Positions 9,961-50,872 of a stretch of 64,000 nt of DNA are shown one piece after another. The translations under genes were made by a program, and so were the position numbers. The notes beneath the pieces are model-generated. The model worked only from the letters and a program-made list of their open reading frames with translations. It did not search any database and was not told the DNA's origin. Numbering within the stretch: the stretch's first letter is position 1; each line of letters starts with the position of its first letter. The stretch is from assembly GCA_964560005.1 (NCBI GenBank), contig CAZLKB010000003.1, forward strand, positions 174,951 through 238,950. Reading direction: 5' to 3'. This DNA is from an uncultured Gammaproteobacteria bacterium (GTDB taxonomy: Bacteria; Patescibacteriota; Patescibacteriia; Patescibacteriales; GWC2-42-12).

Positions 9961-10100
9961 TTGTTATTGCGAGGAATTTTACCCCCTTTAACAAAGGCCC
10001 GTCTCGTCCGCCTCGACTACGCCTTTGAGGCGAGACGGGCCTTGGTCTTGCCGAGGCGGAGGGTTAGGGGGATTTAAATCCTTTTACTTCGCATTGATAA
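9961..10100. repeat. Cluster of GC-rich mini-hairpin repeats in the thrS leader
   Basis: ccccctttaacaaagg; palindrome gcccgtctcg...cgagacgggc (9997-10040); gagggttagggggatttaaatcc. Confidence 0.7.
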
Positions 10101-11247: not shown

Positions 11248-12681
11248 TTATTTTTTTATCACAATTTCAATCCGGTCAACCAGGTTAGGCATCTTCCTGA
11301 CGAAGGAGGGAAAAAACTTTATTTCATAACCGGATATTTCCGGCAAACTATTTAAATAGGCTTTCAGCTGCGCTTCGCTCAACCCGGCCAAATTATTTTT
11401 TTTAATTATGCCGGCGGTATTTTTTAGGGTTACTTTGGCATTAGAAATTACATTCACCGAGGCTGTGCCTTGGCTTAGATCAAAGTTGGCCAGAGCATAG
11501 GTGGTGTCCGGCCTGATAAATTCCACGATTTCTTTATCATCGGCTAAAGCAGCGGTTAAATTAGATTGAACCTGCGCATAAACATCATTACTCTTAAAAG
11601 CAACCACTGTCACCTTTGTTTTCATGTTGATGATAAAGCTGGCTTTTTCCTGGCCAACCTTTCCCTGCACCTCTTGGCTGATGGAATTATTGTCAACTTC
11701 AAAAATTGATTGGTCATAATCCTGATAAGCCAAGCTTATCTCTTTTTTAGCTTTGTCCAAAAGATCCGCTTTAAGTTCGTTAACTGCGTTATCTATATCG
11801 CTTTGCCGGATGATATGCTTTACTTTTTCGCTATAGATCATAGGCTCCTTGCTGGTAGCATAAATTTTATCCTGAAGTCCGGCCCAAAGCCCGGGAATGG
11901 TAAATTTGCTCGGTCCGATAGCCATGTCGGGACTGGCTTCATCGGCGTAGACCTCAGCTTCCACGCTGCCCCCGGCCGGCACATTAACGGTATTTTTCAG
12001 CCGGTAAAGTTTATTGCTCTGGCTTAATAGCCTGGTTGAGGCCACTAGCGGCTGATTCTTTATATAACTGTTTACGATTGTAACTTTACCGCTGACTTCT
12101 TCGCCTAGGGTTTCTTTACCGCTTGAAGCAAAAGTCCGAGATTGCTCTACCGGCACCTGTCTGACTATTCCTTGAATCTCGCCTGAAACCGCGGCCGAAC
12201 TGTTAGCTTTATCAATTATCGTCAAGCTTAAGCTGTCGGCGATTTTTTCTTGCGTTGGTATGATAACTAAAGTAACTTTTGAAAAGCTGAAATATAATAC
12301 GGCAAAAACCAAAAAAATTGTTAAGGCGATAAAACTAAAAGCAATCTTGCGATAAATGTTTCTGACCGCACCCGCCTGCCGGCCGGGCAGATTCTTTTTT
12401 ATAACAGAAGAATTTTTTTTAATTTTAAGCTCGGCTTTAGGCATTGGCTGATCAATAGTAATATTATCGCCGGGCTTAAAGGGCGATACATCTTCTTTTT
12501 CGCCAGAGGGCGCCTGCCTGCTCGTCTCGCTTCCAGCGCCGAGTCTAGGCGGGGAGCTCCGGTGAAGCGGGCCGGCAGGCAGAGATCCGCCTTTGGCGGA
12601 TTTCTTAGCCTTTTTTTTTGGTCTCTTCACATTTTTGGGCGGATTATTTTGAGACGGAGTTAAAAAATTTGTTTCTGGCAT
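11248..12681 (-). CDS. Hypothetical membrane-anchored protein
   Basis: 477-aa ORF from Met23 (MPETNF); basic low-complexity N-terminus containing repeat-derived sequence, one TM, large extracytoplasmic domain. Confidence 0.6.
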   Translation of the reverse strand: MPETNFLTPSQNNPPKNVKRPKKKAKKSAKGGSLPAGPLHRSSPPRLGAGSETSRQAPSGEKEDVSPFKPGDNITIDQPMPKAELKIKKNSSVIKKNLPGRQAGAVRNIYRKIAFSFIALTIFLVFAVLYFSFSKVTLVIIPTQEKIADSLSLTIIDKANSSAAVSGEIQGIVRQVPVEQSRTFASSGKETLGEEVSGKVTIVNSYIKNQPLVASTRLLSQSNKLYRLKNTVNVPAGGSVEAEVYADEASPDMAIGPSKFTIPGLWAGLQDKIYATSKEPMIYSEKVKHIIRQSDIDNAVNELKADLLDKAKKEISLAYQDYDQSIFEVDNNSISQEVQGKVGQEKASFIINMKTKVTVVAFKSNDVYAQVQSNLTAALADDKEIVEFIRPDTTYALANFDLSQGTASVNVISNAKVTLKNTAGIIKKNNLAGLSEAQLKAYLNSLPEISGYEIKFFPSFVRKMPNLVDRIEIVIKK

Positions 12682-12687
12682 ATAAAT

Positions 12688-12812
12688 TTCACGCAACTCA
12701 TAACTCGTAGCTCGTCCGCCTCGGCTTCGCTTTAGCGAGACGGGCAACTCTTTTATCCAAGATTTTGAGTTACCAGTTATGAGTTACGAGTTGTGAGTTG
12801 CGAGTTGCGAGA
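12688..12812. repeat. Word dyad (ACTCATAACTCGTA / GAGTTACGAGTT family) enclosing a GCCCGTCTCGC-family element (12710-12745)
   Basis: caactcataactcgtagctcg on the left, gagttaccagttatgagttacgagttgtgagttgcgag on the right. Confidence 0.7.
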
Positions 12813-12871
12813 TGTAAGTTATGATAATATAATTATTATACCAATTTCCCGCATTACTGTCTATGTCTAAA

Positions 12872-15800: not shown

Positions 15801-16492
15801 TCTTTTTTCTTTTTGGTTTGCAGGCATAATAGAACATCTTGAGGCTCGTCATCATCTTTATTTAAATAATGAACATCGTTAGTGGCAACCAGGGGAATAT
15901 TAAATTCACGCGATATGGCTATGAGCGCGCGGTTGACCTGCTCTTGGTTTTCTAAGTTCGGATGGCTTTGCAATTCCAAATAAAAATTTCCTTGGCCGAA
16001 CAAAGCGTTGTATTCTAAAACCCTCTTCTTGGCTTTATCTAATTTTCCGGCCGCGATCAGCCGTGGGATTTCTCCGGCCAAACAGGCGGTCAAGGCGATT
16101 AAGCCTTCGCTATGCCTAGATAAGACCTCCCAATCAATCCTGGGCTTATAATAAAAGCCTTCTAAGTGGGCGATGGAAGTCAATTTGATTAAATTTTGGT
16201 AGCCGACTTTATTCTTAGCTAAGAGTACCAAGTGATAGTTCCTTTCATCTGACTTTACATTTTTATCCAAGCGGGATACCGGCGCCAGATACGCCTCTAC
16301 GCCGATAATCGGCTTTATACCGGCCTTTTTGCATTTTTGATAAAATTCAATCGCGCCATACATAACGCCGTGGTCGGTAATAGCTAACCCCGAACAGCCT
16401 TCGTCTTTGGCTTTCTGAACCAATTCATCAATCTTGGTCAAGCCGTCAAGCAAAGAATAATGGCTATGGACATGGAGATGAGTGAATCTCAT
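12872..16492 (-). CDS. dnaE: DNA polymerase III alpha subunit
   Basis: PHP domain start MRFTHLHVHSHYSLLDG, palm/fingers motifs, OB fold; start moved to Met11 because the first 10 codons are a TTGAAAATT word repeat. Confidence 0.96.
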   Translation of the reverse strand: MRFTHLHVHSHYSLLDGLTKIDELVQKAKDEGCSGLAITDHGVMYGAIEFYQKCKKAGIKPIIGVEAYLAPVSRLDKNVKSDERNYHLVLLAKNKVGYQNLIKLTSIAHLEGFYYKPRIDWEVLSRHSEGLIALTACLAGEIPRLIAAGKLDKAKKRVLEYNALFGQGNFYLELQSHPNLENQEQVNRALIAISREFNIPLVATNDVHYLNKDDDEPQDVLLCLQTKKKKEDRDRMMMLGGDYSFRSVKTMIEAFKDVPEAIENTEKIAEACNLEIELGKIQLPFFAVPGGQDIETHLDNLCRQGLIFRYGKSYEQIDAATGQRMDYELKVIKNMGWSSYILIVADFVNWAKASKIVVGPGRGSAAGSLVSYLLNITNIDPLKYDLLFERFLNPDRISMPDIDMDFADIRRDEVLRYVEAKYGKDHVAQIITFGTMAARAAIRDVGRVLGYPYELCDKLAKMIPMFSKIKEAVDEIGELKELYKHDEAARRVIDYAKRLEGVARHASTHACAVIITKDVLTEYVPLQYASSSDRTIISQYSMHPVEDLGLLKMDFLGLKNLTIIESAIKIIKNTRGLAIEIDKIPQDDKPTYKLFQAGETTGVFQFESSGMKRYLRELKPTGFEDIIAMVALYRPGPMEWIPDYINGKHGRKKPHYLHPKLEPILAKTYGVAIYQEQVMQIARDLAGFTMAEADVLRKAMGKKIAKLLVEQKEKFIEGCVRNAIASQQAEKIFSFLEPFAGYGFNRSHAACYALIGYQTAYLKSHWPTEFMAALLTADQENTDRIAIEIDECRHMGIKVMPPDINQSYESFTVVTSGTEKNIAVGQNEASSTIRFGLKAIKNIGDHIAEEIIKERKQNGPYKDFTDLLERVCDKDLNKKSLESLIKSGGLDNFGERGQLLGNMETILEFNRDTAKAKNNCQTSLFTDTPGANFSRKLKLGQAPAAKPQEKLIWEKELLGLYISDHPFAGYKKILNPAVLPVAELGSHLTDYQVIVGGVITKIKKIMTRSSEPMLFVKIEDLTGNIEVLVFPSLLKENNLIWQEGKVLLCQGKLSDKDQELKLLCNKTIELSPETSAEVIKKFTAAINDSARGYPLNGGGQNNFGMRKFYPRAAKAAVGNGKAAPAAEPWPASRHVVVKDDKLFINLDASVKSDILAKLKEVLTNNSGDKKVFFKLASADAANLVETDFKVKYDRFLTEEINKIFKK

Positions 16493-16590
16493 AATTTTCA
16501 ATTCATAATTTTCAATTTTCAAACAATTTTCAATGCTTTAATTTTCAATTGAAAATTGGTCATTGTAAATTGAAAATTTTTTTCTGTACA
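16493..16590. repeat. AT-rich word dyad (AATTTTCAA / TTGAAAATT family)
   Basis: Contains the perfect palindrome aattttcaattgaaaatt. Confidence 0.7.
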
Positions 16591-17985: not shown

Positions 17986-18030
17986 ATTATTATTAAATTA
18001 ATATTTAGTTTATTGACAAAAACTTTAGTA

Positions 18031-18162
18031 AAATTTTCAAACACCAATTTTCAATTTTCAATGAATTTTCAAAGTTATAATTTTCAAACTTTCCACCATT
18101 TTTATTTGTAAATTGATTCATTGTAATTTCATTGAAAATTGAGAATTGAAAATTGAAAATTA
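18031..18162. repeat. AT-rich word dyad (AATTTTCAA / TTGAAAATT family)
   Basis: ccaattttcaattttcaatg ... cattgaaaattgagaattgaaaattgaaaatt. Confidence 0.7.
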
Positions 18163-32787: not shown

Positions 32788-34316
<1,529 letters not shown>

Positions 34317-35953: not shown

Positions 35954-37516
35954 TTATTTCACCAAATACTCCACCGTCTCCTTATAATCCTCAACCAGTT
36001 TCTTCATCTCCCCTTCCAGCTTTTCGTTTAACTCCTTCTTCTCGGCGATTTCTTTTAATATCTTAGCGCCGCTGGTAGCCGCGTATTTATGAAGCCCGGC
36101 TTCAAATTCCGCGATTTTTTCCACCGGCACATTATCCGCCAAACCGTTAATCAAAGCAAAGAAAATCAAAACTTGATTGGCTACGGCGAGGGGCGAATAT
36201 TGGCCCTGCTTAAATATTTCCTGTAATCTCTTGCCGCGCTCCAGCTTAGCTTTAGTGTCCTTATCCAAATCAGAACCGAATTGGGCGAAAGCGGCCAATT
36301 CTCTGAACTGCGCCGCCTCCAGCTTCATTTTTCCGGCAACTTTCTTCATGGCTTTTATCTGCGCAGAACTGCCGACCCGGGAAACCGAGAGGCCGGCGTC
36401 CACGGCCGGACGGCTGCCCTGATAAAACAATTCCGGCATTAAATAAATTTGGCCGTCGGTAATGGAAATGACATTGGTCGGAATATAGGCCGACATATCC
36501 CCGGCTTGGGTTTCAATAATCGGCAAAGCGGTAATGGAACCGCCGCCGTATTCCTTACTCAACTTGCAGGCTCTTTCCAATAATCTGGAATGTAGATAGA
36601 AGACATCGCCGGGATAGGCTTCGCGGCCGGGCGGGCGCCTTAAAAGCAAGGAAATTTCACGATAGGCTACCGCGTGCTTAGACAAATCATCATATACTAT
36701 TAAAACATCTTCGCCCTTGTCTAAAAAGTATTCGGCCATGGCGCAGCCGGCATATGGAGCGATATAGAGGAGTGATGCCGGATCCGAGGCTCCGGCCAAG
36801 ACAACCGTGGTATATTCAAGCGCGCCCGATTGTTCCAACTTAGCCACCATGCTCGCCACTTTAGATTCTTTCTGCCCGATGGCTACATAAATACACTTCA
36901 TGTTTTGGCCTTTTTGATTGATAATCGTATCTATAGCTATGGCGCTTTTGCCGATCTGGCGGTCGCCGATAATCAATTCTCTTTGCCCGCGGCCGATAGG
37001 AATAATCGCGTCAATAACCTTGATTCCGGTCTGAACCGGCTCCTTAACTCCCTGGCGGGTAATTACGCCCGGCGCGATTTTTTCCACCGGATAAAATTTT
37101 TCCGCCTCTATTTCCCCCTTGCCGTCCAGCGGCTGGCCCAAGGCGTTAAGCACGCGCCCGATAACGCCAGGTCCCACCGGCACCTCCAGAATTTTTTTCA
37201 GGCATCTTACCTCGTCGCCCGCTTTAATTTTTGAACTATCGCCCAAAATTATGGCTCCGACTCGATCTTCTTCCAAATTAAGCGCCACGCCATAAGACTT
37301 TTCATTTTCAACCAATTCGCGTTCATTCGCGTTCATTCGCGATGAATTCGTGATCTCCAACATTTCCGACATCATGACATCGGAGATGCCTTCAATTCTG
37401 GCAATGCCGTCGCCGACTTCAATCACCCGGCCGACGGTTTGCTCCTTCACGCTAGCCTTATAACCGGCGATTTGCTCTCTTAATTGTTCAACGATAAAAT
37501 CTTTGGTATTATTCAT
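35954..37516 (-). CDS. atpA: ATP synthase F1 alpha subunit with an in-frame repeat-derived insertion near the N-terminus
   Basis: Walker A GDRQIGKS, typical alpha motifs; extra [19 protein letters not shown] segment. Confidence 0.98.
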
Positions 37517-37620
37517 ATAAATTTTTAATTTATAATTTTGAATTTTGATTAAATTTTTAATAATTAATTATTAAACCATTCAAAATTAATTCAAAACTCA
37601 AAATTCATTATTCAAAATTT
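37517..37620. repeat. AT-rich word dyad (GAATTTT / AAAATTC family)
   Basis: ttttgaattttgatt ... ttcaaaattaattcaaaactcaaaattcattattcaaaatt. Confidence 0.6.
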
Positions 37621-38022
37621 TTATTTTATCATCCTATCTTTTAAACCCTCTAGTTGCGCTTTCAGGCTGCCATCAATAATCTTATCGCCATATTTAATAA
37701 CCACTCCGCCCAGAATATTTTTATCAACTATTTCGTCAACTTTGATTTCTTCCGCTCCGGAATGTTTGGCAATATAAGTTTTTAGCAATTTCACGGTTTC
37801 CCGGCTTAATTCGTTGGCGCTCAGTATTTCCGCTTCTACCTGGCCGCGTTCGGTCTGCCAAACCTTAGTAAATTCTTTTATAATCTTATCCGCCGATGCG
37901 ATTTTATTTTTCTCTGCCAATATTTCCACAAACTTTTTTATAACAGGTTTAACATCGGCGGCCGATTTACCTTCGACCGATTCATATAAACTTAAAGCGA
38001 ATTGTTTAGCGGTAATACGCAT
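37621..38022 (-). CDS. atpH: ATP synthase F1 delta subunit (short form, 133 aa)
   Basis: Position between atpF and atpA; C-terminal GGVVIKYGDKIIDGSLKAQL typical of delta/OSCP. Confidence 0.85.
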   Translation of the reverse strand: MRITAKQFALSLYESVEGKSAADVKPVIKKFVEILAEKNKIASADKIIKEFTKVWQTERGQVEAEILSANELSRETVKLLKTYIAKHSGAEEIKVDEIVDKNILGGVVIKYGDKIIDGSLKAQLEGLKDRMIK

Positions 38023-38108
38023 AAAAAATAATTTCTAACAATAATTGAAAATTTAGACATTATTACATTGAAAATTGTTTGAAAATTGAGAATTGAAAAT
38101 TGAAAATT
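38023..38108. repeat. AT-rich word repeat (TTGAAAATT family)
   Basis: cattgaaaattgtttgaaaattgagaattgaaaattgaaaatt. Confidence 0.6.
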
Positions 38109-40567: not shown

Positions 40568-40655
40568 CTCATAAAATCTCGTAACCCATAACTCACAACT
40601 CGTAACTGCTTTAGCACGGCATTTTGAGTTACGGGTTACGAGTTATGAGTTGCGA
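40566..40655. repeat. Word dyad (ACTCATAACTCGTA / GAGTTACGAGTT family)
   Basis: ctcgtaacccataactcacaactcgtaact ... gagttacgggttacgagttatgagttgcgag. Confidence 0.75.
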
Positions 40656-40660
40656 GAAAC

Positions 40661-41500: not shown

Positions 41501-41509
41501 AAACAACTT

Positions 41510-41570
41510 TGTCATTCCCGCGAAGGCGGAAATCCATTTCCTTTGTCATTGCGGGCTCAGACCCGCAATC
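41510..41570. repeat. Two tandem TGTCAT-type hairpin elements
   Basis: tgtcattcccgcgaaggcggaaatcc and tgtcattgcgggctcagacccgcaatc. Confidence 0.85.
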
Positions 41571-41575
41571 TAGAA

Positions 41576-41728
41576 TTTTTAATTTCCAATTTTATAATTT
41601 TTAAATAAATCTTAATTTTTAATTTTTAAAATAATAACTTTGGCTATTTTACTGTTTGAAAATTAAAAAATTTAATCATTAAAAATTGTTTGAAAATTGA
41701 AAATTAGAAATTGAAAATTCTTGATTTA
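41576..41728. repeat. AT-rich word dyad (AATTTTTAA / TTGAAAATT family)
   Basis: tttaatttccaattttataattttt ... aaaaattgtttgaaaattgaaaattagaaattgaaaatt. Confidence 0.6.
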
Positions 41729-42364
41729 CTATTCCCTTATCACTTTTATATTCTCCATATCTCTTAAATCTATTAATTTAGATGGTTTCGCGTTCGCGCA
41801 TTCTCCCGCGTCAATCGCCAGGTCTGGCAAAACCGTAAAATATTTTTCCAAGCCTCTTACATTATCCAGAGGCGGCTCGCCGGTTTTATTCAAACTGGTG
41901 GAAACGATAGGAAAGCCAGCCTTACTAATCATTTTAATCAAAAATTCACTTTTTGGCAATCTAACGGCCAAACTATTTAAGCCGCGGGTTAATTCTTCAG
42001 GCAAATTTTTCCTGCCTTTAAAAATAACAGTGGTCGGCCCGCTTTTTACCCCCTTAATAAAGGGGGTTAGGGGGATTTTTCGTACTCCCCAAACCTTTTT
42101 TAAATACTCCATCTGTTCCTCGCTAACTTCACAATACTCTTTCAGCATGATAAAATCACTTATTAAAATTATGAATGGCTTTTCATCCCTGCCGCCCTTT
42201 ATCTTTTTTATCTTTTCCACCGCTCGCGCATCGCGCGCGTCGCAGCCCAGACCATAAATCGTATCGGTCGGATAAGCGATCACTAAACCGCGCTTTAAAT
42301 AATCCACGATTATGTCTATTTGTTCTGGAGTTATTTTATTTATGTCTATTTTTATGGTTTGCAT
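41729..42364 (-). CDS. tsaC: L-threonylcarbamoyladenylate synthase (TsaC/YrdC family) with an in-frame repeat insertion
   Basis: VIAYPTDTIYGLGCDA, VSTSLNKTGEPP; the W-GPTTVIF motif is interrupted by 16 extra residues. Confidence 0.9.
   Translation of the reverse strand: MQTIKIDINKITPEQIDIIVDYLKRGLVIAYPTDTIYGLGCDARDARAVEKIKKIKGGRDEKPFIILISDFIMLKEYCEVSEEQMEYLKKVWGVRKIPLTPFIKGVKSGPTTVIFKGRKNLPEELTRGLNSLAVRLPKSEFLIKMISKAGFPIVSTSLNKTGEPPLDNVRGLEKYFTVLPDLAIDAGECANAKPSKLIDLRDMENIKVIRE
42048..42079. repeat. GC-rich CCCCCTTAATAAAGGGGGTTAGGGGGATT element inside tsaC
   Basis: Same family as intergenic copies at 44701-44745, 44812-44842 and 10069-10090. Confidence 0.85.
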
Positions 42365-42372
42365 TTGTCATT

Positions 42373-42398
42373 TATCATTCCCACGAAGGCGGGAATCC
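42373..42398. repeat. TGTCAT-like element (TATCAT variant) overlapping the 3' end of the upstream CDS
   Basis: tatcattcccacgaaggcgggaatcc; its complement encodes GFPPSWE plus the stop codon. Confidence 0.75.
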
Positions 42399-43445
42399 AG
42401 AATTTATTTTTTTTTTCAAAATTTTCACTACCCCATTATCCGCGTCCACTTCCACCAAGTCGCCGTCATGCAAAACCTTAGTGGCAATTTTGGTGCCGAT
42501 GATGCAGGGCTTTTTAAGCTCACGCGCAACAATGGCCGCATGACAGGTAATACCACCTTCATCAGTGACAAAGGCGGCGGCTTTTCTCATTGCTGATATA
42601 AAATCTGGCGTTGTCATTGAACTAACGAGAATTTCACCACTCTTAATTTTAAAAATATCTTTATTCTTTAAAATAATTTTGACAACACCACGTGCTTTCC
42701 CTCTATAAGCAACCTGTCCAGTAAAATGGTCTATTTCTGATAAATTTTGCTCTCCCTCAAGAATAAAATTGAATTTTTTCTCCAGTTTTTTTAAATCATT
42801 GACGGTTATCAACTCATCTCCATTTAAAACTAACGTTTTCTTTTTTCTGACTTTTAGCTGGCTTTTAGTTGGGATTAAATTTTTTCTAATCTCATTTAAA
42901 CTTATAAAACTGGAAAGTTCACCTAGCTCGGGATAAATTTTTCTAAGAGCTGTTTCAATTGAGTGGAAAGCGTCATATTCCACTTTATCTATTTTGCGTC
43001 TTATCCCTATCATAAAATTTCTTTCTGGTTCGCTGTAGCTCATGTCGTTCGGAATAAACAAAGAGGCATAAATCAGCAACCAAAAATCTCCTAGTACCTC
43101 CGTAAAGACTAATAAATCCTTTCTTGTTGGGTGAGGGTTGGCATAAAATTTCTCCAGTACCGGAATCTGACGCAAGTGTTTCTCGGAAAAAATTTTCAAA
43201 AATTTTTGTTTTTCGGCCATCTTATCTTCAAAAATTTTTCGTAATTCTTTATCAAGCGGATTCTCATTTCTGTATGCTTTAGCGAGGCCACCTTCAATTA
43301 AAAAAATGTAGCGCGGGAAAGTCTTAATTTTCTTTCCAAAAAATTCCTTATATCTCCCGCCCCATACTTGGCAGAGAATTAAAGGAAAATCTCTGACAAA
43401 GGCCTTCGGAATAATTATCGGTTTTCTCTTGAACATAATAGTCAA
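42375..43445 (-). CDS. PEP-utilising-enzyme mobile (phosphohistidine swivel) domain protein with an unknown N-terminal domain
   Basis: C-terminus LVSSMTTPDFISAMRKAAAFVTDEGGITCHAAIVARELKKPCIIG matches the swivel domain of PpsA/PPDK-type enzymes. Confidence 0.75.
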   Translation of the reverse strand: MTIMFKRKPIIIPKAFVRDFPLILCQVWGGRYKEFFGKKIKTFPRYIFLIEGGLAKAYRNENPLDKELRKIFEDKMAEKQKFLKIFSEKHLRQIPVLEKFYANPHPTRKDLLVFTEVLGDFWLLIYASLFIPNDMSYSEPERNFMIGIRRKIDKVEYDAFHSIETALRKIYPELGELSSFISLNEIRKNLIPTKSQLKVRKKKTLVLNGDELITVNDLKKLEKKFNFILEGEQNLSEIDHFTGQVAYRGKARGVVKIILKNKDIFKIKSGEILVSSMTTPDFISAMRKAAAFVTDEGGITCHAAIVARELKKPCIIGTKIATKVLHDGDLVEVDADNGVVKILKKKINSGFPPSWE

Positions 43446-44691: not shown

Positions 44692-44700
44692 ATTATTTTT

Positions 44701-44842
44701 GCCCCTTTTAACAAAGGGGGTTAGGGGGATTTAAACCCTCCTTCTAAAGGAGGGTTAGGGAGGTTTCCGCCGGAGGCGGATCCGCCTTTGGCGGAAAATT
44801 AACATTGATTAACCCCCTTAATCCCCCTTTATAAGGGGGACG
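44701..44842. repeat. Array of GC-rich mini-hairpin repeats
   Basis: cccctttaacaaaggggg, ccctccttctaaaggaggg, tccgccggaggcgga, atccgcctttggcgga and cccccttaatccccctttataaggggga in one spacer. Confidence 0.85.
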
Positions 44843-44851
44843 GTAATACTT

Positions 44852-49265: not shown

Positions 49266-50726
49266 TTAAATTCTCGGGAACAGCGGCTCGCCTTTCTTTA
49301 TTTGCTTCTCGCTGAATTGCTTAATGATTTTTTCGGAGACCGTAGGCATAAACGGCTTCAGTAGATTGGCCGCATTTAAAATATCCTGGGCAATGGGTTT
49401 TAAAATGTTCTCAATCTCCGTTCGTCCTGAGCCTGCCGAAGGATTCTCTATTTTCCACGGCTTGGTTTCACTTAAAATTTCGTCGCTCGCTCTTAATTTT
49501 GCCCATAATAATTTAAGCGCTTCATCAAATTTAAAAGCTGCCAAATGATCGGCATATTCCTTGATTATTTTTTTATCACTATCTAGTTTTAATTTTAATG
49601 CCAAATTATTTTTTTCTATCAAATTAGCGACCCGAGCAGCTAAATTACCCAAGCCGTTGGCTAAATCGGCGTTATATTTGTCATTGAATTTTTCAAAGCT
49701 GATATCCCCGTCGTGGCCGAATGCCGCCGCGCTCATTATCAGATAGCGGCTGGCGTCAACGCCGTACTTTTTCACCAGATCAAGCGGCGCGATCACGTTG
49801 CCTAAAGACTTGCTCATTTTCTGGCCGTTGATTTTAAAATAGCCGTGCACAAAAATGGCTTCTGGTAATCTCAATCCCAGGGACAACAGCATGGCCGGCC
49901 AAATCGTGGCATGTACTCTTAGTATATCTTTGCTCATCAGTTGAACGTTTGGCGGCCAATAATTTAAATCCCCCTTGACCTCTTTATTAAAGGGGGCGAT
50001 AGAACCGTCCCAGCCAAGACCGGTCAAATAATTTAAAAACGCGTCAGCCCAAACATAGACGGTATGAGATTTATCCCAAGGAATGGGTATGCCCCAGCTA
50101 ATGTTCTTTCTGGAAAAAGAAATATCTTCTAAGCCTTCTTTTTCGTAAAAACTGATAATTTCGTTTTTTCGATTCAGGGGTAAAATTTGTAATTCATCGT
50201 TTTTTATTTTCTTAAGCAATTCATCCTGATATTTTGACAATTTAAAAGTGTAGCATTCCTCGCTCATTTTTTCCGGAACTAAATTATGATCCGGGCATTT
50301 GCCGTCCACTAAATCTCGCTCGCTTTTATACTGTTCGCAGCCGCGGCAATAAAGGCCCTGGTATTTTCCTAAATAAATATCGCCCTTGCCGTACATATAC
50401 TGCAAAGCCTCTTGCACGGCCGCCGCGTGCTTCGGGTCGGTGGTGCGCAAAAAATTATCGTTGGAAATATTCAATTCTTTCCAGGCCTGTTGGAATTTTG
50501 CCGAGATCTCGTCGGCGTACTGTTTCGGTTCCATTTTCATGGCTACGGCTTTTTCATTGATTTTGGCGCCATGCTCGTCCGTGCCGGTTAAAAAAAATGT
50601 TTTATCGCCTTTAAGCCGGTGCCAGCGCGCCAAAACATCGGCCGCCACGGTCGTATAAGTATGCCCGATATGAGGCACGTCGTTAACATAATAGACCGGA
50701 GTGGTAATATAAAATTTTTTTGACAT
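49266..50726 (-). CDS. metG: Methionyl-tRNA synthetase (short form)
   Basis: HIGH motif (PHIGHTYT), KMSKS motif (QKMSKSLGN), Zn knuckle CxxC...CPDH. Confidence 0.96.
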   Translation of the reverse strand: MSKKFYITTPVYYVNDVPHIGHTYTTVAADVLARWHRLKGDKTFFLTGTDEHGAKINEKAVAMKMEPKQYADEISAKFQQAWKELNISNDNFLRTTDPKHAAAVQEALQYMYGKGDIYLGKYQGLYCRGCEQYKSERDLVDGKCPDHNLVPEKMSEECYTFKLSKYQDELLKKIKNDELQILPLNRKNEIISFYEKEGLEDISFSRKNISWGIPIPWDKSHTVYVWADAFLNYLTGLGWDGSIAPFNKEVKGDLNYWPPNVQLMSKDILRVHATIWPAMLLSLGLRLPEAIFVHGYFKINGQKMSKSLGNVIAPLDLVKKYGVDASRYLIMSAAAFGHDGDISFEKFNDKYNADLANGLGNLAARVANLIEKNNLALKLKLDSDKKIIKEYADHLAAFKFDEALKLLWAKLRASDEILSETKPWKIENPSAGSGRTEIENILKPIAQDILNAANLLKPFMPTVSEKIIKQFSEKQIKKGEPLFPRI

Positions 50727-50872
50727 AAATATGACAATTTTTAATTTCTAATTTTCAATTTTTAAACAATTTTCAATGACTTAATTTTCAATTTTAAAAA
50801 CCAGGGGCATTGAAAATTGAAACATTAAATCATTGTTTGAAAATTGAAAATTGAAAATTGAAAATTTTTTAA
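50727..50872. repeat. AT-rich word dyad (AATTTTCAA / TTGAAAATT family)
   Basis: ctaattttcaatttttaaacaattttcaatg ... cattgaaaattgaaac...gtttgaaaattgaaaattgaaaattgaaaatt. Confidence 0.7.

What the first reader, a model, noticed from the sequence alone, without database searches (positions are those of the whole stretch)
42041..42088. GC-rich intergenic repeat inserted in frame into the conserved core of TsaC/YrdC
Seen: the element acccccttaataaagggggttagggggatttt (42048-42079) belongs to the same family as purely intergenic copies at 44701-44745, 44812-44842 and 10069-10090. It lies inside tsaC and is translated as GVRKIPLTPFIKGVKS. This splits the sequence W|GPTTVIF, which is contiguous in canonical family members (WPGPxT motif). 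The reading frame continues undisturbed.

Established: Rickettsia palindromic elements are the classic case of repeats inserting in frame into protein genes.

Inference: an analogous process operates here in an essential tRNA-modification enzyme.
Basis: partly seen in the sequence, partly recalled or inferred. Interest (0 to 1): 0.72.

Follow-up and report, generated by a model that had tools for sequence, protein, structure and literature searches.

The report
Hairpin repeat inserted in-frame in tsaC
A short GC-rich hairpin repeat that normally lies between genes sits in frame inside the essential tRNA-modification gene tsaC of a Patescibacteria genome, and the same few codons carry different hairpin repeats in almost half of the related genomes examined, so this spot is a recurrent insertion hot spot.

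Summary
tsaC (41729-42364, minus strand) carries a 48-nt in-frame segment (42041-42088) that replaces the first Pro codon of W-P-G-P, a net gain of 15 residues. Its 37-nt core is 31/37 identical to an intergenic copy at 44697-44733. Solved and distant TsaC/Sua5 homologues lack the segment. A confident AlphaFold model (pLDDT 89) places it as the only disordered loop, between a helix and a strand.

The case is not isolated. Of 120 Patescibacteria orthologues, 53 carry an insert at this site. It belongs to at least four hairpin-repeat families (A-D), plus other insert types. Genes 87-92% identical differ in state (empty, B, C or D). In 67 loci sampled without regard to the site, every length difference is a multiple of 3 and both gene halves stay in one frame, so the inserts are most likely translated. 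Similar in-frame elements sit in loops or N-terminal tails of metG (also in this window), atpD and a PPDK-like gene.

Hairpin cores are conserved at synonymous sites far above the gene background. One filled/empty pair shows a recombination tract. The empty target, TGGCCCGGGCC, is itself a GC palindrome.

Verdict: an analogue of Rickettsia palindromic elements or cyanobacterial small dispersed repeats. I found no published description in Patescibacteria. The multi-family hot spot is unusual, and the mobilising mechanism is unknown.

The parts
41729..42364 (-). tsaC (threonylcarbamoyl-AMP synthase, single-domain YrdC type), 211 aa
   Evidence: ORF. Pfam PF01300, E=1e-42, covering residues 22-211. 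PDB homologues 1jcu, 9d3h, 6f89 and 1hru. Conserved PEP-utilizer / tsaC / tatD / ATP-synthase gene order in relatives.
42041..42088 (-). 48-nt in-frame segment encoding GVRKIPLTPFIKGVKS (residues 93-108). It replaces the first Pro codon of W-P-G-P, a net gain of 15 aa.
   Evidence: 15-residue gap against every aligned solved structure. +45 nt relative to the orthologue consensus, in the same frame. pLDDT is below 50 only for residues 95-107 in a model with mean pLDDT 89.3.
42043..42079 (-). Core of the family-A repeat. On the coding strand it reads AAAATCCCCC-TAA-CCCCCTT-TATT-AAGGGGG-TAAAAA.
   Evidence: 31/37 identical to the intergenic copy 44697-44733. Chance expectation 0.
42048..42067 (.). 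Perfect 8-bp stem with a 4-nt loop (ACCCCCTT-AATA-AAGGGGGT on the + strand)
   Evidence: Sequence. Hairpin scan. RNA fold of the 54-nt context gives -22 kcal/mol, z = -1.9.
42070..42080 (.). Third arm and tail (GGGGGATTTTT on the + strand; a direct copy of the C-arm on the coding strand). With the hairpin it looks like a terminator on the + strand, which is antisense to tsaC.
   Evidence: terminator-like site 42050-42074 followed by ATTTTT.
44697..44733 (-). Intergenic family-A copy immediately upstream of the ATG (44691) of the ornithine/DAP decarboxylase gene. Its G-rich arm lies about 10 nt before the start codon.
   Evidence: A near-identical copy sits at about L002 2811-2850, upstream of the likely orthologous gene; the gene identity there was inferred, not checked.
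44735..44766 (-). Adjacent related copy with CCCTCC/GGAGGG arms and the same hairpin + TTA + third-arm + TTT architecture
   Evidence: (D19, 67%).
44766..44795 (.). Two tandem family-D hairpins (TCCGCCGGAGGCGGA, TCCGCCTTTGGCGGA). This is the same family as the tsaC insert of locus L085.
44812..44842 (+). Intergenic family-A copy in the opposite orientation (CCCCC-TTAAT-CCCCCTTTATAAGGGGG)
10061..10075 (-). Tail module only (GGGTTAGGGGGATTT), following a different hairpin (CCGCCTCG...CGAGGCGG)
49967..49997 (+). Second in-frame copy in this window. It is a partly decayed family-A element inside metG (49266-50726, minus strand), in the opposite orientation relative to the gene. It encodes APFNKEVKGD.
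   Evidence: Orthologues have SAGKAPK here, so this metG is 7 aa longer. There are 8-12 residue gaps against solved MetRS structures. It uses the single stop-free frame of that orientation.

Best explanation
SHOWN. A copy of about 48 nt of a dispersed GC-rich hairpin repeat (family A: C-arm, TAA, C-arm, loop, G-arm) lies inside tsaC. It has replaced the first proline codon of the W-P-G-P motif, keeps the reading frame and has no stop codon. The predicted protein keeps a confident YrdC fold, and the extra 15 residues form the only low-confidence loop, between helix 82-91 and strand 111-117.

SHOWN. This is one case of a general process in this Patescibacteria lineage.
- The same stretch of at most 9 nt of tsaC holds inserts from at least four hairpin-repeat families, plus an AT-rich hairpin and nested or tandem forms, in 53 of 120 orthologues.
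- Genes 87-92% identical carry different occupants or none.
- Related elements sit in frame in loops or N-terminal tails of metG, atpD and a PPDK-like gene.

INFERRED. The elements are copied into new places by an unidentified mechanism. Selection then keeps only insertions in the one or two stop-free phases and in permissive loops. Occupied alleles turn over by new insertion, by imprecise deletion (scars such as W-GES-PVT) and by homologous recombination of short tracts that carry the insert.

INFERRED. The insert is translated and tolerated as a surface loop. It is not needed for catalysis.

INFERRED, weaker. The site is hit so often partly because its DNA, TGG-CCC-GGG-CC(G/A), is itself a 10-12 bp GC palindrome in an AT-rich genome, and native palindromes attract these elements.
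For: Insert and repeat identity.

Absence from solved and distant homologues.

Hot spot:
- The alignment of 120 homologues shows 53 with an insert after W92.
- All other internal sites together have about 18 inserts of 3 aa or more.

Reading frame: 67 loci were retrieved through C-terminal peptide patterns, so the sample is not biased with respect to the site.
- Both gene halves are always in one frame.
- The extra lengths are 0, 3, 6, 9, 12, 18, 21, 24, 30, 36, 42, 45, 48, 60 and 75 nt, all multiples of 3.

Hairpins: perfect 6-10 bp stems occur in most inserts of 18 nt or more; exceptions are L001, L030, L033 and L069.

Family membership, shown by copies of the same families outside tsaC:
- B in L015 and L002, intergenic.
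- C in L017 and L014, intergenic.
- D in window 44766-44795.
- A in the window and in L002.

Different states in close relatives:
- L084 empty, L085 D, L038 B and L039 C are 83-88% identical in nucleotides.
- L086 is empty and L087 carries B, at 92%.
- L017 carries C and L029 carries B.
- Junctions differ: B and D replace CCCGGG, C is a pure 18-21 nt insertion, and L051 and L023 insert after WPG.

Other genes:
- atpD, +31 and +10 aa.
- metG, five different inserts in one loop region.
- PPDK-like gene, a clean 39-nt B insert 3 nt from a native hairpin.

Frame logic: family A has exactly one stop-free frame per orientation. tsaC uses one and metG uses the other.

Structure: mean pLDDT 89.3, pTM 0.87; the only segment below 50 is residues 95-107.

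Recombination: between L086 and L087, 31/132 mismatches lie within 66 nt of the insert against 17/459 elsewhere, Fisher p=5e-11.
Against: - There is no direct evidence of translation. No proteomics could be done, and frame conservation is indirect.
- No mobilising enzyme was identified, and the target-site signatures are inconsistent. Family C has 4-6 nt direct repeats, while A, B and D show small target deletions.
- Family A has only 3-4 other copies in 64 kb. For most related loci no copy with the same arm as the tsaC insert was found in the short flanks available.
- Hairpin cores are conserved at four-fold degenerate sites far above the gene background: 14/16 against 36/111, p=4e-5. A purely neutral passenger does not predict this. 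It points to recent or recurrent arrival, gene conversion, or selection on the structure.
- The hot spot could reflect loop tolerance alone. The atpD insertion sites have no GC palindrome nearby.
- The position of the loop relative to the active site was not measured.
Confidence: 0.8

Rival explanations
1. The hairpin is a functional nucleic-acid element kept by selection inside the gene, not a passenger. It could be an mRNA stability or processing site, a translational pause, or a terminator of antisense transcription. On this view recurrence at one site reflects a selected function.
For: - Synonymous sites in hairpin cores are almost invariant (14/16) where the gene background is 36/111.
- L028 has a compensatory C/G indel that keeps both the stem and the frame.
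- The + strand of the element is terminator-like, antisense to tsaC.
- Intergenic copies sit at fixed positions just upstream of start codons and are conserved between genomes.
Against: - About 55% of orthologues do without any insert, including genes 92-94% identical to insert-bearing ones.
- Unrelated hairpin sequences occupy the site.
- Decayed stems exist (L001, L069, P0009).
- Deletion scars exist.
- The fold z-score of the window copy is only -1.9.
- No Rfam family matches.
Confidence: 0.2
2. There was one ancient insertion in an ancestor of this clade, followed by vertical divergence into the present 'families' and repeated precise loss. There is no recurrent insertion.
For: - All A and B inserts have the same orientation and frame. 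Most are 48 nt.
- Within the A6 group (family-A inserts with six-C arms: L014, L018, L024) the insert as a whole is about as diverged as the gene.
- The NJ tree of a 196-aa protein is poorly resolved.
Against: - Junctions differ. Inserts lie after W, after WP with PGP retained, or after WPG.
- Families B, C and D have their own copies outside tsaC in related genomes.
- Empty alleles are exact WPGP, whereas observed deletions leave scars.
- Three different occupants and the empty state occur among genes 83-88% identical.
Confidence: 0.08
3. The segment is not translated. It is bypassed by the ribosome or removed from the mRNA, so the protein has a contiguous W-(P)GP.
For: A stable hairpin sits inside a coding gap-like segment, which recalls the 50-nt bypass in phage T4 gene 60 (from memory). 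There are no protein data.
Against: - All 40 length differences in 67 loci are multiples of 3, and both gene halves stay in one frame; 14 non-zero lengths are seen. Removal before or during translation would not require this.
- The metG copy uses the only open frame of its orientation.
Confidence: 0.03
4. The insert is an assembly or chimera artefact of the metagenome-assembled genome, or a native lineage-specific loop that only by chance resembles the intergenic repeats.
For: The exact protein is known from a single record, and no read data are available.
Against: - Equivalent inserts recur in independent assemblies. The same allele is in L014, L019 and L020; L040 equals L041; P0052 is on 47 contigs.
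- The identity to the intergenic copy is 31/37 with 0 expected by chance.
- The reading frame is preserved.
Confidence: 0.02

Closest known systems
Rickettsia palindromic elements (RPE; Ogata et al. 2000, Claverie & Ogata 2003; cited from memory)
   Same: They are palindromic repeats of a reduced, AT-rich genome. They occur both between genes and in frame inside conserved, essential protein genes, at positions compatible with the fold, and they add a peptide segment.
   Different: RPEs are about 100-150 bp. The elements here are 18-54 nt simple hairpins with an extra copy of one arm. There is no sequence similarity and the phylum differs. Here several families occupy one codon junction with rapid turnover, which to my knowledge has not been described for RPEs.
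Cyanobacterial small dispersed repeats (SDR; Elhai et al. 2008, Genome Res 18:1484; reference seen, content from memory, paper not held)
   Same: They are very small hairpin-forming dispersed repeats (about 20-30 nt) that behave as mobile DNA, nest within each other and can lie within genes.
   Different: The lineage and sequences differ. The architecture of three arms plus a tail, and a multi-family hot spot in one essential gene, are to my knowledge not part of that description.
REP / BIME / REPIN elements with RAYT transposases (PMC3116915, PMC3733652)
   Same: They are 20-40 bp GC-rich imperfect palindromes present in many copies, mostly between genes, and are proposed to act in termination or mRNA stability.
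   Different: REPs are by definition extragenic and carry a GTAG or CGTC tag at one end. No such terminal tag is visible in families A-D. A RAYT gene was not searched for.
Optional GC clusters in the yeast mitochondrial var1 gene (Butow and colleagues; Wenzlau & Perlman 1990; from memory)
   Same: They are GC-rich palindromic clusters in a very AT-rich genome. They are optional in-frame insertions in a protein gene that spread between alleles by gene conversion. The recombination tract around the L087 insert is comparable.
   Different: That system is an organelle genome with a single gene. The elements differ in size and target.
Coxiella burnetii MITEs inside ORFs (PMC5896051, title and abstract seen)
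   Same: They are small non-autonomous palindromic repeats of a reduced genome that contribute to protein-coding sequence.
   Different: They are larger elements with terminal inverted repeats. No shared hot spot is reported in the abstract read.

Membership tests
TsaC/YrdC/Sua5 (PF01300), the host gene | Significant match to the family profile over the whole domain | tested here: met
   E=1e-42, 146 bits against a cut-off of 25.1, residues 22-211. PDB TsaC/Sua5 hits down to 2e-23.
TsaC/YrdC/Sua5 (PF01300), the host gene | Conserved catalytic and substrate-binding positions and fold retained despite the insert | tested here: met
   T35, K56, R135 and S155-T-S-L-N159 are invariant in the 104-sequence alignment. 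AlphaFold2 mean pLDDT 89.3 outside the insert. The catalytic role of these residues comes from the literature (KxR/SxN motifs, PMC10321239).
In-frame palindromic repeat insertion (RPE-like phenomenon) | The inserted segment belongs to a dispersed repeat family that also occurs between genes | tested here: met
   31/37 identity to 44697-44733. Further copies at 44735-44766, 44812-44842 and the tail at 10061.
In-frame palindromic repeat insertion (RPE-like phenomenon) | The segment is absent from orthologues and the reading frame is preserved | tested here: met
   67 of 120 homologues have contiguous W-PG-x (x mostly P). PDB and distant homologues lack the segment. All length differences are multiples of 3.
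In-frame palindromic repeat insertion (RPE-like phenomenon) | The insert lies in a loop compatible with the fold | tested here: met
   It lies between helix 82-91 and strand 111-117 and is the only segment with pLDDT below 50. Surface exposure and distance to the active site were not measured.
In-frame palindromic repeat insertion (RPE-like phenomenon) | The insert is translated into protein | not testable with these tools
   Only indirect evidence: frame conservation and use of the single open frame.
Rickettsia palindromic elements proper (RPE-1 to RPE-8) | Element of about 100-150 bp homologous to an RPE consensus, in Rickettsia | tested here: not met
   The element is 37-48 nt and the host is a Patescibacteria genome. 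Sequence comparison with RPE consensus sequences was not run.
REP/REPIN | Extragenic location and a GTAG or CGTC tag at one end of the palindrome | tested here: not met
   This copy is intragenic. No terminal GTAG/CTAC or CGTC/GACG is present in the A, B, C or D consensus sequences read.
REP/REPIN | An associated RAYT (IS200/IS605-like Y1 transposase) gene in the genome | not tested
   The window ORFs were not scanned for PF01797, and only 64 kb of the genome is available.
MITE | Terminal inverted repeats plus a target-site duplication of fixed length | tested here: inconclusive
   The hairpin arms could serve as inverted repeats. Family C inserts are flanked by 4-6 nt direct repeats (GGCC, GGCCTG). 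A, B and D inserts instead replace 3-6 nt of the target, and the PPDK-like insert is a clean 39-nt insertion.

The most novel reading that the evidence does not exclude
Patescibacteria carry an undescribed class of ultra-small (about 20-50 nt) mobile hairpin elements. They integrate preferentially at or next to pre-existing GC-rich palindromes, such as the TGGCCCGGGCC that encodes W-P-G-P in tsaC, GGCCGGCC in metG, and a native hairpin in the PPDK-like gene. Their hairpin cores are kept intact by nucleotide-level selection or by gene conversion. The result would be structure-directed, recurrent insertion into essential genes, with the occupied alleles then spreading between lineages by homologous recombination.
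Probability: 0.3. Interest if true: 0.8.

Novelty: new variant of a known kind. Interest (0 to 1): 0.6.

Why it matters
In-frame insertion of palindromic repeats is a known but rarely documented route by which selfish or structural DNA changes proteins. Three things would matter here.

1. It shows the process at work in Patescibacteria (CPR), whose genomes are tiny and considered streamlined. It affects their most conserved housekeeping genes (tsaC, metG, atpD).
2. One stretch of at most 9 nt has been occupied by at least four different repeat families and is polymorphic between near relatives. That offers a natural system for asking what directs such elements to a target and how fast they turn over.
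3. There are practical consequences. These inserts inflate apparent protein divergence, create spurious 'lineage-specific loops' in alignments and structure predictions, and may cause gene-calling or assembly problems in CPR metagenome-assembled genomes.

Tried and rejected
- Looking up the exact TsaC protein in the contig index found nothing. The source genome could not be named beyond Patescibacteria relatives.
- The genome-contig scan gave only three close loci. The metagenome scan was needed.
- Gapless searches for each insert in its own 17-20 kb locus found no second copy outside the window. Searches for hairpins with the same arm also found none. Family membership for B, C and D therefore rests on copies of the same families outside tsaC in other related loci.
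- The first AlphaFold run, with 28 close sequences, was unusable (pLDDT 49.9). It was repeated with 104 sequences.
- The Rfam gathering scan of the window found only a tRNA.
- Literature searches combining Patescibacteria/CPR with REP, MITE or palindromic elements returned no relevant paper. The Elhai 2008 paper is not held.
- A donor for the L087 recombination tract was sought among all loci and not found.
- A common target motif beyond 'GC palindrome containing GGCC' was considered. It was not adopted because the atpD sites lack one.
- Ribosomal bypass or excision, a single ancient origin and an assembly artefact were considered and rejected, as set out under the rival explanations.
Full report
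**1. The observation**

The minus-strand ORF 41729-42364 encodes a 211-aa protein. It matches Pfam PF01300 (Sua5/YciO/YrdC) with E=1e-42 over residues 22-211. It also matches solved TsaC/Sua5 structures down to E=2e-23.

On the coding strand the DNA reads AAAATCCCCC-TAA-CCCCCTT-TATT-AAGGGGG-TAAAAA. That is a perfect 8-bp hairpin (42048-67) preceded by a direct copy of its C-rich arm.
- Positions 42043-42078 match the intergenic stretch 44697-44732 at 86% (family D19).
- A gapless comparison gives 31/37 identical.
- The 28-nt core finds only these two places at up to 3 mismatches, with none in 100 shuffles.
- The tail GGGTTAGGGGGATTT is exact at 10061, 42064 and 44718, and occurs with two mismatches at 44752, against 0.19 expected.
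- The hairpin pattern also finds 44822-44840, in the opposite orientation.

Relative to homologues the net gain is 15 residues, because S108 aligns with the first Pro of WPGP. The copy near 10069 shares only the tail module, which there follows a different hairpin.

**2. Is it an insertion?**

All three residue-level alignments to solved structures (1jcu, 9d3h, 6f89) show a 15-residue gap exactly between W and PGP. Distant homologues fetched from archaea and other bacteria have a contiguous (W/L/F)PGP.T.

A search of the large protein collection gave 577 homologues, and the best 120 were aligned. Of these, 67 have a contiguous W-PG-x (x mostly P), with a typical length of 195-196 aa. The other 53 have extra residues after W92.

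**3. The site is a hot spot for several repeat families**

The 53 inserts are not one sequence. DNA of 75 related tsaC loci was obtained. The DNA shows these families:
- Family A: C5-6T...AG5-6 hairpins preceded by a copy of the C-arm. Found in the window, L014, L015, L018-21, L023, L024, L052 and L075.
- Family B: CCTCACCCC-nn-CCTCTCC-TTAGTAA-GGAGAGG. Found in L016, L028, L029, L038, L040/41 and L087, and nested in L043.
- Family C: CCTGCC...GGCAGG. Found in L017, L030, L033 and L039.
- Family D: TCCGCC...GGCGGA. Found in L085.
- An AT-rich hairpin in L051.
- A hairpin-less 45-nt insert in L069.

Copies of the same families also lie outside tsaC in these genomes:
- B occurs three to four times around a small DUF559 gene in L015, and in L002.
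- C occurs in L017 and L014.
- D occurs at window 44766-44795.
- A occurs at window 44697-44842 and at L002 2823.

After W92 there are 53 inserts. All other internal positions of TsaC together have about 18 inserts of 3 aa or more. One of those is a 60-nt GC-rich hairpin insert after KIKG in L002.

**4. Recurrent events**

Outside the insert, insert-bearing proteins often have an empty allele as nearest neighbour:
- P0039 (B) and P0040 (empty) are 92% identical.
- P0056 (B) and P0072 (empty) are 92% identical.
- P0071 (C) and P0072 (empty) are 94% identical.
- P0045 (D) and P0094 (empty) are 91% identical.
- P0068 (C) and P0090 (B) are 88% identical.

At DNA level, L084 (empty), L085 (D), L038 (B) and L039 (C) are 83-88% identical and differ only in what lies between TGG and CCG-GTN.

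The junctions differ:
- B and D replace the hexamer CCCGGG.
- C is a pure 18-21 nt insertion that leaves PGP intact and is flanked by 4-6 nt direct repeats.
- The L051 and L023 inserts follow WPG.
- The window's A copy replaces one codon.

Short forms such as W-GES-PVT, W-GEQQ-PTT and W-STSAAR-PVT look like imprecise deletions that kept the insert flanks. Exact WPGP is therefore more likely the unoccupied state.

A single ancient insertion cannot easily produce this pattern. At least five independent events are needed.

**5. Recombination also moves the alleles**

Between L086 (empty) and L087 (B), 19/66 and 12/66 positions differ in the 66 nt on either side of the insert. Elsewhere in the gene only 10/210 and 7/249 differ. 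Pooled, that is 31/132 against 17/459, Fisher p=5e-11.

For the upstream patch, L086 is not among the seven best matches printed (at least 77%), although the rest of the gene is 95-97% identical to it. This is the signature of a short imported tract that carries the insert, or that removes it. No donor was found among the loci held.

The other close pairs show no such clustering of differences.

**6. Is it translated?**

The metagenome loci were retrieved with peptide patterns from the C-terminal half. The sample is therefore blind to the state of the site.

In all 67 loci that hold both halves, the halves are in the same frame. The extra lengths are 0 (27 loci), 3, 6, 9, 12, 18, 21, 24, 30, 36, 42, 45, 48, 60 and 75 nt, and every one is a multiple of 3.

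Family A has exactly one stop-free frame per orientation. tsaC uses one (KIPLTPFIKGVK). The metG copy, in the other orientation, uses the other (FTPLIKGVRGI type).

This is what selection on translated sequence predicts. Bypass or excision would not predict it. Direct protein evidence is lacking.

**7. Where it sits in the protein**

With a 104-sequence alignment, AlphaFold2 gives mean pLDDT 89.3 and pTM 0.87. The only segment below 50 is residues 95-107, between helix 82-91 and strand 111-117. An earlier run with a shallow alignment was unusable.

W92 and T112 are nearly invariant. T35, K56, R135 and the S155-T-S-L-N159 stretch are invariant. More distant Patescibacteria orthologues have W-xxxxx-PTT (three residues longer, no PGP) at this place, so the loop is length-tolerant.

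The phrase 'conserved core' is right for the flanking residues but not for the loop itself. Exposure and distance to the active site were not measured.

**8. A general process**

In this same window, metG (49266-50726, minus strand) contains a partly decayed family-A element in the opposite orientation (about 49967-49997, APFNKEVKGD). Orthologues have SAGKAPK there. Solved MetRS structures show 8-12 residue gaps at that place.

In related loci the same metG loop region carries other inserts:
- PASPAKRGE in L061 and PASPKFKRGE in L085.
- FTPLVKGDGRCS in L050.
- A 27-aa insert with a reversed B element in L051.

Other genes are affected too:
- atpD has +31 aa in L014, including SLPTGQAG from a family-C hairpin, and +10 aa in L085.
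- A PPDK_N-like gene in L029 has a clean 39-nt B insert (PHPRPLLSKEREF), 3 nt upstream of a native conserved hairpin, CGTGGCCG...CGGCCACG.

**9. Two observations that a neutral-passenger model does not fully explain**

First, hairpin cores are far more conserved than their genes.
- In L014, L018 and L024 (gene identity 70-74%), 33 of 35 central nucleotides are identical while the flanks have drifted.
- At four-fold degenerate sites, 14/16 inside the cores are identical across the compared lineages, against 36/111 in the rest of the genes, p=4e-5.
- L028 has a matched extra C and extra G that keep both the stem and the 48-nt length.

Recent or recurrent arrival, gene conversion from dispersed copies, or selection on the structure could each explain this.

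Second, the empty target TGG-CCC-GGG-CC(G/A) is itself a 10-12 bp GC palindrome in a genome of 33-44% GC. The metG loop contains GGCCGGCC and GCCGGC. The PPDK-like insert abuts a native hairpin.

I infer that native palindromes attract the elements. The atpD sites have no such palindrome, and selection for a permissive loop could produce a hot spot by itself. This step is a hypothesis.

**10. What the intergenic copies may do**

- The A copy at 44697-44733 ends about 10 nt before the ATG of the decarboxylase gene. It is nearly identical in L002.
- B copies in L015 and L002 sit just upstream of the ATG of a small DUF559 gene.
- Their G-rich arms (AAGGGGG, AAGGAGAGG) resemble ribosome-binding sites.
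- On the + strand the tsaC copy is terminator-like, which is antisense to tsaC.
- No Rfam family matches.

None of this was tested further.

**11. Comparison with known systems and novelty**

The phenomenon works like Rickettsia palindromic elements and like the very small dispersed repeats of cyanobacteria. The allele spread by recombination recalls the optional GC clusters of yeast mitochondrial var1.

It is not a member of the RPE families, on size and host. It is not a member of REP/REPIN, because the copy is intragenic and has no GTAG/CGTC tag; a RAYT gene was not tested.

Full-text searches combining Patescibacteria/CPR with REP, MITE or palindromic elements found no description.

I rate it a new variant of a known kind. 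The class (in-frame palindromic repeat insertion) is established. The lineage, the very small three-arm elements and above all the multi-family, fast-turnover hot spot at one codon junction are, as far as I can tell, new.

Interest 0.6.

Noticed in passing
window 49967-49997 (inside metG 49266-50726, minus strand): A second in-frame family-A element in this window, in the opposite orientation and partly decayed. It encodes APFNKEVKGD where orthologues have SAGKAPK. The same metG loop region carries four other repeat-derived inserts in related loci (L050, L051, L061, L085).
   Followed up: yes
window 12585-12601 (inside ORF 11248-12747, minus strand): A family-D hairpin, ATCCGCCTTTGGCGGAT, encodes SAKGGS. 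It lies in a low-complexity, Pro/Gly/Lys-rich N-terminal tail that precedes a predicted membrane helix. This may be another coding copy, or the start codon may be mis-called.
   Followed up: no
window 44692-44851: The 160-nt spacer between two minus-strand genes is almost entirely made of five hairpin elements (A, A-like, D, D, A reversed). In L015 the likely equivalent spacer (between the two neighbouring genes with the same Pfam domains) instead holds a small PDDEXK_3 gene. The A copy next to the start codon is conserved in L002 (2811-2850).
   Followed up: partly
window 41508-41575 and 42366-42400: tsaC is bracketed by copies of another abundant hairpin family (GTCATTCCCGCGAAGGCGGGAATCC and TTGCGGGCTCAGACCCGCAA types, usually flanked by GTCA...CCAG). 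This family is the commonest GC-rich hairpin in nearly all related loci.
   Followed up: partly
window 16485-16571, 18024-18161, 34198-34316, 37512-37630, 38051-38108, 41559-41719, 50728-50866: AT-rich arrays of the heptamer AATTTTC/GAAAATT occur in both orientations in many intergenic regions. They often form long inverted pairs (families D2/D3, I1-I14). Their function is unknown.
   Followed up: no
window 12762-12825 and 40621-40656: Short arrays of a 7-nt unit (GAGTTAC/GAGTTGC/GAGTTGT) are shared between two distant intergenic places (D16).
   Followed up: no
L014 15736-17211; L085 16951-18363: The ATP synthase beta subunit carries in-frame N-terminal inserts. L014 has +31 aa, including SLPTGQAG from a CCTGCC...GGCAGG hairpin. 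L085 has +10 aa, PTFAKATVGE. Four orthologues lack both.
   Followed up: yes
L029 541-579: A clean 39-nt family-B insertion (PHPRPLLSKEREF) lies in a PPDK_N-like gene, 3 nt upstream of a native hairpin that is conserved in six orthologues without the insert.
   Followed up: yes
L002 10163-10225 (tsaC, after KIKG): A different 60-nt GC-rich palindromic insert (PAFAPPTPRLRWVSKASAGE; the 90-nt context folds at -34 kcal/mol) sits at a second site of tsaC, in a genome whose W-PGP site is empty.
   Followed up: partly
L015 14293-14851; L014 14922-15310: Small endonuclease-like genes (DUF559/Vsr-like in L015, GIY-YIG in L014) are inserted between atpG and atpD and flanked on both sides by hairpin repeats. 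This suggests a link between the repeats and mobile endonuclease cassettes.
   Followed up: no
L086 1737-2327 against L087 3035-3667: Nucleotide divergence is 6-10 times higher within 66 nt of the insert than in the rest of the gene. This is a short recombination tract associated with the presence/absence difference.
   Followed up: yes
L079 271-555: Only the C-terminal half of tsaC was detected although the match starts 270 nt inside the contig. No N-terminal half was found upstream. This could be a truncated or split gene.
   Followed up: no
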